From Ginglymostoma cirratum (lineage: Eukaryota), in contig JAHRHZ010000036.1 of NCBI GenBank assembly GCA_024137785.1, positions 3,111,091-3,175,090 on the forward strand: 64,000 nt of DNA, read 5' to 3'. The position numbers were made by a program, and so were the translations under genes. Positions 1 through 64,000 of the stretch are shown piece after piece. The notes beneath the pieces were generated by a model. That model had not been told where the DNA came from. It saw nothing but the letters and a program-made list of their open reading frames with translations, and ran no database searches. Every line of letters begins with the position of its first letter. Within the stretch, counting starts at the first letter, position 1.

Positions 1-144
1 ACCCTTCATCAGGTTTCTGATGAAGGGTCTAGGCCCGAAACGTCAAGTTTTCCTGCTCCTATGATGCTGCTTGACCTGCTGTGTTCATCCAGCCCCATGC
101 TTGTTATCTCGGATTCTCCAGCATCTGCAGTACCTTTTTATCTC
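1..144 (+). mobile_element. Penelope-like (PLE) 3'-end fold-back element, copy A (left arm cut by window edge)
   Basis: Palindromic centre acccttcatcag-gttt-ctgatgaagggt, hammerhead core, then shared arm ending ...ttgttatctc + tail ggattctccagcatctgcagtacctttttatctc. Confidence 0.85.
17..44 (+). ncRNA. Minimal type I hammerhead ribozyme core (PLE-associated)
   Basis: CTGATGA-A-GGGT CTAG GCCC-GAAA-CG-TC: conserved core, 4-bp stem II, palindromic ACGT stem III, GUC cleavage triplet. Confidence 0.75.
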
Positions 145-1259
145 TTCTGTAATAATGGTTGTTTCCAGGTCCTCATCTACCCTTCGTCTCTTTGTCAATT
201 ACTGGTATGTTATTAGTGTCCTCCACTGTGAAGACCGATACAAAATACCTGTTCAATGCCTCGGCCATTTCATCACTTCGAGTCATTCTGGCCTCTAAAC
301 GTTAACTGTTTCTCTCCACAAATGCTGCCAAACCTGTTGAATTTCTCCAGCAGTCTCTTTGATTTCCAGCATCCTGTAGTATTTTGCTTGTTGCCTGATT
401 TTAATTCTGTTACAATTGGTTGTGGGATTGTTTTAAACTTCTGGTGCATGTTATGTAGGGTCTCATGTGACATGAATGATCTAGTTATCTAGATTGGAGT
501 TCTACACATTCATTGATGAGCAGGTGCACTCCTGCACAGTCATGTCATGTTGTCCAACAGCCCCAGAGAAAATAGTCTGTTTCTGAAGACTTCAACATTC
601 CAGGAAACACTCTGATGCAATGGACCAACAGCCTTCTGCATTGCATTTGTACAGAATGCTGTGCTGCTTGCCTGTATTTGGGGTCTGGGACTGACATACA
701 TATTTTTAATTCTTTCCCTTCATTTTATTCTATTAATTTCTGACTGCAATGCATTTCTGGTAGCAGAAGTTCACTGGTACGAGTGTGTTACCTAGTACCA
801 GCTGTGCTTTGTTGCCTCATTTGGCACTTTGTACTTTAAACATCTGAAAGCAGGCTTGCCGCTTGTTTGCGGGAGACCGTAACGGCGCTATCGTTGTGAT
901 GACTGTGTGGATTTGATAATGTGCTCTTGTTTGATTCTGGAGCTTTGCTAGTTTACATGATTCACCTATATCCTGCATGAAATAGAATTCTGTGATGCTA
1001 TTTCACTGAGAGGGTGGGGGCTGAAAGATGGTCATTTATTGTCTTCTATCTTTAGGCAATAATGACAAATATTCTAGCTGAAACATTCTGTCGTTTCCAC
1101 GTGTACATCTTTCATCTCTTGGAGGCTGGATTATTGCAGATGCCACTCTCAATGTAAAATGTAAATAAACATTGAAGTATGGTTTAAAAATTATGGTTAA
1201 AATCTGAATTGCAAAATGTTTAAAAAAAAGGGATTTTTAAAACTACTTCTGTCTGTACT

Positions 1260-1750
1260 TCAATGCAGTACCAAGGGGTCAGTTGTTGACAGTGCTGCCT
1301 TTCAAATGAGTAGCTGAACCACTAACTCACATGGTTTCTCAAGTGAATGTGAAAAGCATCTGTGACGCTATTTCAAAGTGATGTGCAGAAGTGCTTCTTG
1401 GTGTCCTGACGACAAGTATTGTGATTCAGAAATAACTCTGAAGAAGGTGAGGCTTGAAACCAGGTCTTCTGGCCTACAGGTAGGGACACTACCACTATGC
1501 CGCAGGAACTCTGCAAGCTGTCATCTTCGGCAACATTTTGAGCTCCCCACAGTCGTGTCAGGTTGAGGACTAAAGCAGATGGTCTGGCCATTGTTACGTT
1601 GCTGTTTAAGCAACCTTGCTTTGTTCAAGTTGCCTGCCATGCTTCCTGCATTACAATAGTACCTAAACAGCACAATGTACTTGGTTAGCTGCATAGTGCG
1701 CTGGGACATCCTGAAGTTTTGAAAGGGGCTGTTTTGAATGTAAGCTTATT
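1260..1750 (+). mobile_element. Deu-domain SINE (DeuSINE/SacSINE1-like), interrupted by a tRNA-derived SINE head at ~1440-1510
   Basis: gctgcctttcaaatgag...ctatttcaaag...ggtgtcctgac...cttcctgcattacaatag...gggacatcctgaagttttgaaagg resembles the Deu domain and L2-like tail. Confidence 0.6.
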
Positions 1751-3459
1751 GTTCCTATAGTTGGTCCACTAATCTGTATGGAAATAAAGAGGAACTTGTT
1801 TGTAGCTGGTTTATTGACCTTTTTAGGCTGGAATATTCCAGTTTAATTGACTTCCTACTCTTGAGTGAGGGGAAAGCATTTATTTGGCTCCCAGCCTTAG
1901 TGATTTGTGCACGCTATTGGACATGGAGTTGGCTCGGAGCAAATATTGTATTGTGCTTGACTCTTCCTGTTTTCTTGCTGATTGTCCAAGCTTGACATGA
2001 TTGCTTAATAACAGGAGAGGTGTTGGTGACTTCCTTTCATGAGTGTCACTCATTTTTTTGATTTTTCCTGTTTACTATCTTCCAAATAGTTGCATGGCAA
2101 CTTTTCGCTTCAACTTTTCTGAATAATGGGCCAGGTTTTAAATGAAAATTAGCTCGTGCAATTGTAGTTTATGTAAGCAGTAAAGCTGCCAAACATCAAT
2201 CTGCCTTTCAATTCTCTATTTTAATGTCACAGTTTAACCAGTTTGTACCCCATATTTTAGTGACCGAATGAAGCCTTTCAAACCATTCAGACAAGGAATG
2301 GGAATGACTTCCTATTAAAAATCATTGGTTTTGCTTGAGAAATATGATCTGTCTATAGCACAAATTAGTTTCAAATGGTGCAGAAGTGTCTTTCAAGTTG
2401 ACTTTTTTTGCAGTGTACTACAGATGACATTTTATAACTCTTGCACATTGTGTTCCTGTTAGTGTTTTCAAAACTTCTAATGCTCCTCACATTCACACAC
2501 GTTTTTCCTCTTTCTTTCACCTACCCCCAAAAACGTTGTTCGTGTTTTCAATGGCTTCACAGTAGAATCACGTTCCGTTTGTTAGTGAGTTACTTAAACA
2601 TTTGCTTTTCCTTTCGATTTAAAAAAAAAAGCAGTTGACCGTATGACATGTGGTACATTGGTTCTCTAGTAAGATGCACTCCACTGGCTTGATAATTGAT
2701 TTTAACAACTGAATTGGCCAGAATTTCATGCCCATGGTCCATGTTAGAAATTGCGTGTTTACGTACAGTGGGATGCTTTTCAGTGAGGTGCTAGTTAGTG
2801 CCAATACGTTGCTTGGCTACATCAGAATGCAGATATTTGATTCTGGCAAAGTTAGAGTTGTCAGACCATTGTATGATTTAATGTCACGCTAGTGAGCTTG
2901 GACCCCTTTTAGGTTCATGCTGGTCTCTTCAGATTGGAAATGCTAAATACAACAGACTTGATGTAGGTCTTTTTGATAAGACATGTCCAAAACACTCCAG
3001 TTTTCATTTTAACTGACTTTAACTGGGATGTTCAGATTTGTCAAAACCTCTTGTGCCACATAGAATGATACAGCACAAAATGCAGGCCATTTAGTCCACC
3101 AACACTATGCCAGCTCTTTGTGCTCTCCAGTTAAATCCCACTCCTGTGCTTGTCATCAGATTTTCTGCTTTTCAAATATATATCCAGCCTGCTTCTGAAG
3201 ATTATGCCCTGTGCTTTTACAGGCAATCTATTTCAGATCTTCAAACTTTTTTTTAAAATTCTCCTGTCCTGACCACCAAAACTAAACTGTTCAGTCACCC
3301 CAGCAGAAGAACCATCAGAAATTAAGATTTGAATGCTGATTATTCAGGCCAGACGGAGTCAAATTGCCACTGAGAGAAATCTGTTTGAACAGGTTGTTTT
3401 TTAACGGTGAACTATTTAAAAAGTTGTTTCAAGCTAATGCACACTTTTCAAAAACAAAA

Positions 3460-3815
3460 GTCTGTACTTCCAGATGAGATGCTCAATGGAACTCCCAACT
3501 ACATCCACCAAAGAGGGGAAGAGATCTTGTGCCTCTATTTCAAAGAAAAGCAGGACTGTTTCACTGTTTCACCAATTTTAATTTTGCACAAATTCATTCC
3601 CTCAACGAACATCACCAAAACAGATTATCTCAACATCACTAAAACAGCAACATGATGTTGAGATAATCTGTTTGTGGGACCTTGCTGCACTCAAATTGGC
3701 TGCTGCATTTTGTACGCTACTAGTGTGGCAAAATATTAGAAGTACTCAAATGGATGAAATGAGCTTTGGAGATCCTGAGATTTTGAAAGGCACAATATAA
3801 CTTCAAATATTTCTT
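3460..3815 (+). mobile_element. Deu-domain SINE (further copies ~22270-22630 and ~50500-51035)
   Basis: ccctcaacgaacatcaccaaaacagattatc...ctgtttgtgggaccttgctg...aaattggctgctgc...gagctttggagatcctgagattttgaaaggc. Confidence 0.65.
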
Positions 3816-62574: not shown

Positions 62575-62800
62575 GAGATTTTGAAGCTTGTGAAATCCAC
62601 ATTGATGCCATTGGGCTGCAGGGTTCCCAGGCTGAATATGATTTGCTGTTCCTGCAGCCTTCGGGTGGCATCACTGTGGCATTGCAGGAGGCCCAGGATG
62701 GACATGTCGTCTGAGGAATGGGAAGGGGAGTTGAAATGGTTCGCAACTGGGAGGTGCAATTGTTTGTTGCGAACTGAGCGCAGGTGTTCTGCAAAAGCGG
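62575..62800 (-). pseudogene. Truncated GIY-YIG endonuclease C-terminus of a Penelope-like retroelement
   Basis: Minus-strand translation ...AEHLRSVRNKQLHLPVANHFNSPSHSSDDMSILGLLQCHSDATRRLQEQQIIFSLGTLQPNGINVDF (ORF 62457..62759); HFN...E...L.TL.P.G.N pattern typical of PLE endonucleases. Confidence 0.85.
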
Positions 62801-62943
62801 TCCTACCCCCCTACCTACACTCACCTTTACTGGCTCCATCACCGCCTCTTCGACTTGTCTGCCTCCTCTCCACCTATCCTCTCCTCTATCCGCCTCCCCC
62901 TCTCTCCCTATTTATTTCAGAACCCTCTTCCCCTCCCCCATTT

Positions 62944-62971
62944 CTGATGAAGGGTTTAGGCCCGAAACGTC
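62944..62971 (+). ncRNA. Minimal hammerhead ribozyme core, plus strand
   Basis: attt-CTGATGAAGGGTTTAGGCCCGAAACGTC-aagt (short stem I attt/aagt). Confidence 0.75.
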
Positions 62972-64000
62972 AAGTTTTCCTGCTCCTATGATGCTGCTTG
63001 ACCTGCTGTGTTCATCCAGCCCCATGCTTGTTATCTCGGATTCTCCAGCATCTGCAGTACCTTTTATCTCCACTAGTGGGACCAGTATTTGTTGCCCATC
63101 CTTAACCTACCCTTCAGCATGCGGTGGTGAGCTGCTGCCTTGAACGACCTGCAGTCCTTAGGGTAGGGTACACATGATGCAGTTAGGGAGGGGGTTCCTG
63201 AAGTGTGACCTATGATGGAAGTGTATCACTGTTCCCTTACTAAGTCAGGATGGTGACTGGCTTAGACAGAACTTGCTGCTGGTGGTGTTCCTATGTCATT
63301 GCTGCCCTCGTCTTTCCAAATGGAAATGGTTGTGGGGTTTAGAAGGCTCTGTTTAAGGATCTTTGGTGAATTGCTGCAGTGCATTTTTGTCAGTGTTGAT
63401 GTGGTGCCAATTTAGGGGGTTGCTTTGTCCTGCAAGCTGCCAAACATCTCCAGTGTTATTGGAGCTGCACCCACCCAGGCAAGTGGGGGGAGTATTCCAT
63501 CACACTCCTGACTTGTGGCTTGTAGATAATGGTGGGACAAGCTTTGGGTAGTCAGGAGGTGAGTTACTCACTGTAGGATTTGGATTCTCTAAACTCTGAC
63601 CTGCTCTTGTGGCTACTGTATTTATAGGGCTCGACCTGTTCAGCTACTGACATAGAAGGAGGCCCTTTGGCCCATTGTACTGGTTCTATTACTTAAACAA
63701 TTTAATCAAACCCCTGAACACTGCCAGTAAAGTTGGCTCTCGTTCCCTGTTTTTGTTTGTTAATGTCTGCGGTACCTGGGGATCTCTGTGCACTAGACGA
63801 ACTATTTTAAGTACAACTTGTTTCACCTACCAAACAGGAAATAGACTGTGATGGTTACGCTGAACATGATTAAGATGATGGTTCTCGGACCCACATCCTG
63901 AGGCTCACAGCTGTTGGGACAGGCACAAGGGTTGTCAACGTCAATCTGTAACAGGTTGGGGTTCTCTGCACTGTGCGATAGGACCACAGAGTGACTGGAG

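What the first reader, a model, noticed from the sequence alone, without database searches (positions are those of the whole stretch)
1..63084. A family of short hairpin insertions derived from a Penelope 3' end, with hammerhead cores, one-sided tail and ~14-bp TSDs
Seen in sequence: at least seven insertions (1-144, 13246-13922, 17720-17864, 28942-29142, 42550-42660, 54391-54587, 62189-63070) share one architecture. Two inverted copies of the same 3' end are joined at variable internal points, with both outer ends at or next to a TTATCTC motif (GAGATAA on the left). Only one arm has the extra ~33-nt tail (ggattctccagcatctgcagtaccttttatctc), which itself ends in TTATCTC. Five copies have 14-15-bp TSDs with no obvious shared sequence. 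Copy C links the family to a GIY-YIG endonuclease. Established: Penelope-like elements encode GIY-YIG, often insert with inverted pseudo-LTRs and a short tail, and carry minimal hammerheads. Inference: most insertion products here are tiny, non-coding, MITE-looking hairpins (about 110-250 bp), about one per 9 kb. This suggests a fixed two-ended integration geometry (one end 33 nt offset from the other, ~14-nt staggered cut), and possibly hairpin RNAs that are themselves mobilised as non-autonomous elements.
Basis: partly seen in the sequence, partly recalled or inferred. Interest (0 to 1): 0.85.

Follow-up and report, generated by a model that had tools for sequence, protein, structure and literature searches.

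The report
Short Penelope-like retrotransposon hairpin insertions
These are real but mostly ordinary: tiny hairpin-shaped leftovers of a shark Penelope-like (Neptune-type) jumping gene, whose inverted arms and one-sided tail are already known for this class, although where the arms stop gives a testable hint about how such elements copy themselves.

Summary
Seven inverted insertions are present. In 6 of 6 complete ones the 31-34-nt tail is on one arm only and a target-site duplication (TSD) of about 14 bp flanks the insert (5 clear, 1 decayed). The 881-bp copy holds the C-terminal half of a GIY-YIG endonuclease, 96% identical to a whale-shark RT+GIY-YIG protein whose CX4CxxC linker marks it Neptune/Nematis-type, not Penelope/Poseidon. 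Only 4 of 7 loci keep a full hammerhead core.

Inverted copies, one-sided 30-40-nt tails, minimal hammerheads and very short insertions are published PLE features. Two-strand cutting and extension from two start sites that bracket the tail was shown in vitro (Frangieh 2024). So the 'two-ended geometry' is right but largely known. All 7 junctions differ, so hairpin self-amplification is unsupported (weak power).

Not found in my searches: the narrow ~14-bp TSD, the same TATCTC motif at both start sites, and 9 of 15 arm 5' ends stopping within 20 nt of a TATA-like + initiator site. The last suggests that mini-hairpins are two run-off cDNAs joined head to head. Repbase, Dfam and shark genomes could not be checked.

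The parts
1..144 (+). Copy A: tail-bearing arm 14-144 with intact minimal hammerhead core at 17; 12 nt of the inverted arm at 1-12, rest cut by the window edge; one extra G at the junction
13246..13922 (-). Copy B: tail arm on the left; 400-N gap 13403-13802 whose sides overlap by 46 nt (likely a 231-bp hairpin); arms 97/97 identical; both hammerhead cores intact
13232..13245 (.). TSD of B, left copy (right copy 13923-13936), 14/14
17082..17172 (+). Copy X: extra single arm, starts inside the hammerhead core, no clear tail or TSD
17720..17864 (-). Copy C: older third sequence type; left arm is a 31-nt tail plus about 6-8 nt; right arm with decayed hammerhead at 17769; decayed TSD (9-bp core 17712-17720 / 17869-17877)
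28942..29142 (+). Copy D: 200-bp hairpin, tail on the right; junction inside a small parent palindrome; TSD 28929-28942 / 29145-29158 (14 with 1 mismatch, 16 with 2 CpG-type mismatches); intronic
42549..42659 (-). Copy E: 111-bp hairpin, tail on the left, no hammerhead; one extra G at the junction; TSD 42534-42548 / 42660-42674 (15/15)
54391..54587 (+). Copy F: about 195-bp hairpin, tail on the right; 2-3-nt junction microhomology; TSD 54377-54392 / 54588-54603 (16, 1 mismatch)
62189..63070 (+). Copy G: 881 bp; tail-less left arm about 614 nt, tail-bearing right arm 236+33 nt, 2-nt microhomology at 62802-62803; TSD 62175-62189 / 63071-63085 (15/15)
62571..62798 (-). C-terminal half of a PLE GIY-YIG endonuclease (76 aa), 96% identical to P0001
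62909..62915 (+). TATA-like box (relaxed TATWWAW), 31 nt before the initiator-like A; predicted only
62938..62944 (+). Initiator-like YYANWYY, A+1 at 62940; predicted transcription start near which most short arms end
62944..62971 (+). Minimal type I hammerhead core; expected cut after 62971
   Evidence: features as in PMC4209133
63031..63037 (+). Inner TTATCTC: end of tail-less arms, inferred RT start site 1
63038..63070 (+). 33-nt tail ending in a second TTATCTC: inferred RT start site 2

Best explanation
These are ordinary, dead insertion products of a shark Neptune-type Penelope-like retrotransposon, each made independently from the parent's RNA. The RT-GIY-YIG protein (probably a dimer) nicks both target strands about 14 nt apart (inferred from TSDs). 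Each 3' end primes cDNA, one at the outer and one at the inner UAUCUC site 31-34 nt apart (two-strand extension and two start sites shown in vitro for the anole Poseidon element; inferred here). The two cDNAs grow toward each other and are joined head to head by end joining (0-4-nt microhomology or one extra base; seen in sequence). Most are tiny probably because these start sites lie only about 100-130 nt from the RNA's 5' end, so the RT runs off (inferred; about 0.45 on its own). Long arms such as G's come from read-through RNA of a tandem copy. Hammerhead cleavage is not what ends the arms.
For: PLE parent: 96% and 88% hits to whale-shark and zebra-shark proteins, best of 32 hits among 53 candidates; P0001 has RVT_1 then GIY-YIG; 69 of 78 full-length relatives carry the CX2-5CxxC linker. 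Geometry: one tail in 6 of 6, TSDs all compatible with 14 +/- 1 once shared end bases are allowed for. Two independent cDNAs: the longer arm is the tail arm in some loci and the tail-less arm in others; in G the tail-less arm reaches 614 nt while the tail arm reaches 236, so neither can be a fold-back copy of a target-primed other; G's arms differ by 11 mismatches + 2 gaps in 236 nt despite a perfect TSD, while young arms differ from G's right arm at 1-3 of 94 sites. Junctions are all different and include blunt (B) and one-base-insert (A, E) types. Run-off: 9 of 15 arm 5' ends lie 80-99 nt from the inner end, i.e. -2 to +18 from the predicted start, none between 100 and 234; 6 of 8 loci, P 0.001-0.03 depending on the range assumed; TATA+Inr pairing in 0 of 20000 local shuffles, under 0.1% of window positions. 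0 of 15 arms start at the hammerhead cut and 12 of 15 run through it, matching use of uncleaved RNA in vitro.
Against: Eight loci only. The promoter is a post-hoc prediction with a relaxed TATA consensus, and the D. virilis Penelope promoter is TATA-less. The sequence beyond the tail is unknown: tests that the tail is the ORF's N-terminus gave nothing and the codon test does not pick a frame. B's arms are identical and share private variants, which fits one template, fold-back, later gene conversion or assembly collapse equally. That 2 of G's 3 pseudo-LTR variants match other types is only P 0.055. Primer-template overlap at ends is only suggestive (P 0.02-0.08). The in vitro work is on another clade.
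Confidence: 0.7

Rival explanations
1. Self-priming (snap-back): one strand folds back at a short palindrome and is copied into a hairpin, which the endonuclease then trims asymmetrically (leaving the tail) and integrates.
For: Proposed for inverted PLE copies in Arkhipova 2013; tail ascribed to EN-mediated resolution in Craig 2021. D and F junctions sit in small palindromes of the hammerhead; B's arms are 97/97 identical with shared private variants.
Against: B is blunt and A, E have an extra base, with no fold-back stem. G's arms differ at 13 of 236 positions. In vitro the tail is explained by two RT start sites on both strands.
Confidence: 0.15
2. Same double priming, but arms are short because RT stalls at the hammerhead stem or the pyrimidine/C-rich tract just upstream, or because long palindromes are later deleted or lost in assembly; the promoter match is coincidence.
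For: The stop zone coincides with the 5' half of the hammerhead. B shows that these hairpins break assemblies. De novo PLE insertions in Chlamydomonas have median length 128 bp, ascribed to 5' truncation.
Against: Sharp edge: no arm ends between 100 and 234 nt, and B's two arms end within 0-2 nt of the predicted start; the hammerhead region shows no unusual stability (z -1.25 to +2.17).
Confidence: 0.3
3. The hairpins are themselves transcribed and mobilised as non-autonomous, MITE-like or retrozyme-like elements.
For: High density (7 in 64 kb); non-autonomous PLE derivatives exist (Chlamys-N, retrozymes). The junction test here has low power.
Against: 7 of 7 junctions differ. Inserts stop at the tail, whereas the anole enzyme needs about 55 nt beyond its start site (first 172 nt of ORF versus starts near 111-118). 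A full hairpin RNA would bury the inner start site in duplex (inference). 3 of 7 lack a hammerhead core. Known retrozymes are head-to-tail tandems.
Confidence: 0.07
4. DNA-transposon MITEs with terminal inverted repeats.
For: Short, palindromic, TSD-flanked appearance.
Against: Ends are asymmetric by a tail, junctions vary, and one copy runs into a PLE endonuclease gene.
Confidence: 0.01

Closest known systems
Poseidon element of Anolis carolinensis (PAc; Frangieh 2024, PMC11167929)
   Same: RT plus C-terminal GIY-YIG; both strands cut and extended; two RT start sites bracketing the tail; hammerhead just upstream; uncleaved RNA used. Spacing is alike: ATG to hammerhead cut 26 nt and starts at about 111-118 nt in PAc; here 24-25 nt, and 91 and 124 nt, from the ATG in the hammerhead core.
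   Different: PAc is Penelope/Poseidon clade, prefers 5'-ATT-3' and starts in an AC-rich stem-loop, with no primer-template homology reported. Here: Neptune-type linker, no shared target motif, a repeated TATCTC at both starts. The main text gives no TSD lengths or inverted-junction analysis.
Inverted pseudo-LTR plus tail structure of EN+ PLEs (Penelope, Neptune, Nematis, Naiad; Craig 2021 PMC8557442; Arkhipova 2013 PMC3846280)
   Same: Inverted 5'-truncated copy, 30-40-bp tail at one end, TSD, palindromes or microhomology at the junction; TATA plus Inr-like motif in a rotifer pLTR.
   Different: Rotifer TSDs quoted are 8-10 bp and PLE TSDs are called variable; here about 14 in 6 of 6. Here most inserts are two pLTR fragments with no ORF.
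Minimal hammerheads of metazoan PLEs (Cervera and de la Pena 2014, PMC4209133)
   Same: Core without helix III, extra base before helix II, G10.1-C11.1 pair, palindromic 15.2-16.2; that paper notes dual motifs 100-700 bp apart on opposite strands, as in B and G.
   Different: Sharks not mentioned in the parts read; activity not tested here.
Non-LTR retrozymes (Li 2026, bioRxiv 10.64898/2026.07.22.740005)
   Same: Non-coding, PLE pLTR-derived, hammerhead-bearing, present in a cartilaginous fish.
   Different: Head-to-tail tandems with a hammerhead in each unit; these are head-to-head, single, often without a full core.
L1 twin priming (recalled, not read)
   Same: Both target ends prime cDNA, giving an inversion joined by microhomology within a TSD.
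   Different: In L1 the second primer anneals at a variable internal site and the pieces do not overlap; here both arms start at fixed sites 33 nt apart and overlap.

Membership tests
EN+ Penelope-like elements | GIY-YIG endonuclease C-terminal to RT in one ORF | tested here: met
   Window holds only the C-terminal half; its 96%-identical relative P0001 has RVT_1 then GIY-YIG
EN+ Penelope-like elements | CCHH motif with two cysteines between GIY and YIG | tested here: met
   In P0001 and 70 of 78 full-length relatives; the histidine half is in the window, the cysteines are not
EN+ Penelope-like elements | Inverted 5'-truncated copy and 30-40-bp tail at one end | tested here: met
   6 of 6 complete loci
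EN+ Penelope-like elements | Minimal type I hammerhead in the pLTR | tested here: met
   Core motif in 4 of 7 loci; no Rfam match; cleavage not tested
EN+ Penelope-like elements | Partial-tandem full-length copy with direct pLTRs | not testable with these tools
   No full-length copy in the window; no shark genome collection on hand
Neptune (or Nematis) clade | CX2-5CxxC zinc-finger-like linker between RT and EN | tested here: met
   CX4CxxC in P0001 and 69 of 78 relatives; criterion from PMC8557442. Linker itself not in the window
Neptune (or Nematis) clade | RT phylogeny with named reference elements | not tested
   No named Neptune/Nematis/Poseidon references among hits; Neptune rather than Nematis rests on vertebrate host
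Penelope/Poseidon clade | Absence of the CX2-5CxxC linker | tested here: not met
   Linker present in P0001
Non-LTR retrozymes | Head-to-tail tandem units, each with a full hammerhead | tested here: not met
   No such array; copies are head-to-head
Amplified non-autonomous element (MITE or SINE-like) | Many copies with the same internal structure | tested here: inconclusive
   7 of 7 junctions differ but power is low
MITE | Symmetric terminal inverted repeats from a DNA transposon | tested here: not met
   Asymmetric ends; retrotransposon coding remnant

The most novel reading that the evidence does not exclude
The hairpins are a genomic footprint of the full PLE integration reaction: a dimer makes a concerted, nearly fixed 14-nt staggered cut; each DNA end pairs by 1-4 bases with one of two repeated UAUCUC start motifs (a telomerase-like short primer-template register); both cDNAs run off the capped 5' end of the transcript, like LTR strong-stop DNA, and are end-joined. 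No second-strand synthesis from the target would be needed, and the same rule would explain inverted pLTRs and why PLEs need tandem copies to move full-length.
Probability: 0.35. Interest if true: 0.6.

Novelty: new member of a known kind. Interest (0 to 1): 0.32.

Why it matters
As annotation: such inserts look like MITEs or microRNA-like hairpins and break assemblies (copy B), so they should be labelled PLE fragments. As mechanism: how PLEs complete integration and form inverted repeats is still called unresolved in the papers read. A young, dense shark family with clean TSDs would allow a purely computational genome-wide test of stagger length, double priming and run-off at the transcription start.

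Tried and rejected
Rfam: no hammerhead match at gathering threshold over the window or at E<=10 over 62850-63100 (4 chance hits). Pfam and NCBIfam on the 76-aa piece: none. PDB: no solved PLE relative of P0001. GTDB scan with a 29-nt arm motif: 0 loci, so no extra loci could be gathered. Folding the 3' end: no significant structure in 6 folds. Tail as ORF N-terminus: position-weight test on 32 of 78 relatives not significant for the favoured frame (593-1490 of 2000 shuffles as good), no BLAST hit among 270 proteins, no database hit, codon test ties two frames; left open. Target-site consensus: none seen in 6 TSDs beyond bases shared with the element ends. Arms ending at the hammerhead cut: 0 of 15. 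A recalled link between Penelope palindromes and UCON13 was not borne out: the Repbase review lists UCON13 as Penelope but has no 'palindrom' or 'hairpin'. The parent element was not rebuilt; the window lacks it.
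Full report
Labels: A 1-144, B 13246-13922, X 17082-17172, C 17720-17864, D 28942-29142, E 42549-42659, F 54391-54587, G 62189-63070.

Observation. Self-BLAST and a search with G's arms recover all seven loci as inverted pairs of one 3' end, plus the single arm X. The alignment of 14 arm segments shows three sequence types: A/B/E/G (91-93 of 94 sites identical to G's right arm), D/F with X close to them, and C. In 6 of 6 complete loci one arm ends at the inner TATCTC and the other carries a further 31-34 nt ending in a second TATCTC. TSD scores for B, D, E, F, G were reached by 0 of 3000 random flank pairs, C's 9-bp core by 2 of 3000. Because 0-4 end bases are shared between TSD and element, true lengths are ranges read by eye: G and E 14-15, B 12-14, F 13-16, D 12-16, C about 13-14. 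B's 400-N gap is flanked by an exact 46-nt overlap that includes the centre of symmetry, so B is probably 231 bp. Other lengths: E 111, C 143, F 195, D 200, G 881. A full hammerhead core is present in A, B, C and G only; Rfam has no match.

Parent. G's left arm encodes 76 residues of an endonuclease C-terminus. Its best hits, among 32 of 53 candidates, are whale-shark P0001 (96%) and zebra-shark P0002 (88%). [quoted passage not shown] By the criteria in Craig 2021 this is Neptune/Nematis-type and not Penelope/Poseidon. No tree with named references was possible. No other coding remnant of the family is in the window.

Junctions. All seven differ: A one extra G; B blunt; C tail plus 6-8 nt joined to a near full arm; D inside a 10-bp parent palindrome (4-nt microhomology plus a 15-bp deletion in one arm, or a direct join with a 2-nt inversion); E one extra G; F 2-3-nt and G 2-nt microhomology.

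Where arms stop. Mapped on G's right arm, 9 of 15 arm 5' ends lie 80-99 nt from the inner end; the others are at 8, 23, 52, 73 (about 95 if D's deletion is accepted), 235 and about 614. None starts at the hammerhead cut (65 nt); 12 of 15 pass through it. The zone begins at an initiator-like motif (A at 62940) 31 nt after a TATA-like box (62909); such a pair arose in 0 of 20000 local shuffles and covers under 0.1% of window positions. At locus level 6 of 8 have an end in the zone, P 0.001-0.03. Both slot and motif were chosen after seeing the data; D. virilis Penelope has a TATA-less promoter that also starts within the pLTR, a rotifer pLTR has TATA plus Inr-like motifs.

Mechanism. Orientation is what two first-strand cDNAs would give if each 3' end of a staggered cut primed reverse transcription (inference). 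Frangieh 2024 showed that the anole enzyme cuts and extends both strands, starts at two internal sites whose spacing is the tail, is predicted to dimerise, needs RNA up to +172 of the ORF and uses uncleaved RNA. G argues for two separate cDNAs: unequal arms in the wrong sense for fold-back, and 13 differences in 236 nt. Against: B's arms are identical with shared private variants; the sharing of 2 of 3 G variants with other types is P 0.055; end overlaps at the tail-less end (1, 1, 1, 2, 4, 0) are P 0.02-0.08; and I could not show that the ORF starts in the tail region. Shown: structure, TSDs, parent type. Inferred: double priming, dimer, end joining, run-off.

What is known. Inverted truncated copy plus one-sided 30-40-bp tail is described as typical (Craig 2021, passages; curation guide PMC8969392, passages). 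Rotifer examples have 8-10-bp TSDs and a self-priming proposal (Arkhipova 2013, passages and Discussion). Opposite-strand hammerhead pairs 100-700 bp apart were noted in 2014 (PMC4209133, parts 1-2 of 4). Very short de novo PLE insertions are known (PMC9977147, passages). Retrozymes are tandem PLE derivatives (bioRxiv 10.64898/2026.07.22.740005, parts 1-2 of 5). Frangieh 2024: parts 1-2 of 4 and passages read; supplement 2 gave only panel labels, supplements 1 and 3 were not read and may bear on cut spacing and copy ends. Passages only, nothing relevant: PMC5753468, PMC9004415, PMC12910113, PMC6155905; PMC2377424 passages. L1 twin priming and the TATA/Inr consensus are recalled. [quoted passage not shown]

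Verdict. Real, well described, but a new member of a known kind. The two-ended geometry is supported and mostly published; hairpin self-mobilisation is unsupported. The narrow TSD, repeated start motif and promoter-proximal stop are modest, testable additions. Interest 0.32.

Noticed in passing
window 60150-60344: An older hairpin of a second, unrelated repeat family with the same build: about 73% inverted arms, a degenerate hammerhead-like motif next to the junction, an extra ~18 nt on the right arm only and a 9-11-bp flanking direct repeat. Suggests the architecture is shared across shark PLE families; PLE identity is inferred.
   Followed up: partly
window 282-381 (+), 20791-20895 (-), 48891-48989 (-), 49686-49777 (-), 44820-44887 (-), 32897-32946 (-): Older single-arm remnants related to the same pLTR; several seem to begin at the hammerhead's 5' end as well.
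   Followed up: partly
window 48046-48083: A perfect 38-bp palindrome at the centre of an old, otherwise diverged hairpin of that older family (about 47990-48170); the centre may have been homogenised after insertion, a caveat for reading arm identity.
   Followed up: partly
window 28521-47471 (+): Exons of a host gene with an NT-C2 domain piece (Pfam PF10358, E 3e-4, below the curated cut-off), EEIG1/FAM102-like by recall; copies D and E lie in its introns.
   Followed up: partly
window 62947-63070 versus 29021-29140: From the ATG in the hammerhead core the D/F type reads open through the tail; the A/B/E/G type has compensating +1/-1 indels that keep the same frame but an in-frame TGA between them. 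Unexplained.
   Followed up: partly
window 1425-1500, 15030-15091, 61750-61816: Another small dispersed repeat; one copy matches the hammerhead core pattern at 1438, probably by chance.
   Followed up: no
window 3618-3673: A 21-bp perfect inverted repeat with a 14-nt loop that contains TTATCTC but no other similarity to the family.
   Followed up: no
window 31731-31861 and 32947-33077: A 130-bp AT-rich inverted pair (78%) 1.1 kb apart, one copy abutting an old pLTR remnant.
   Followed up: no
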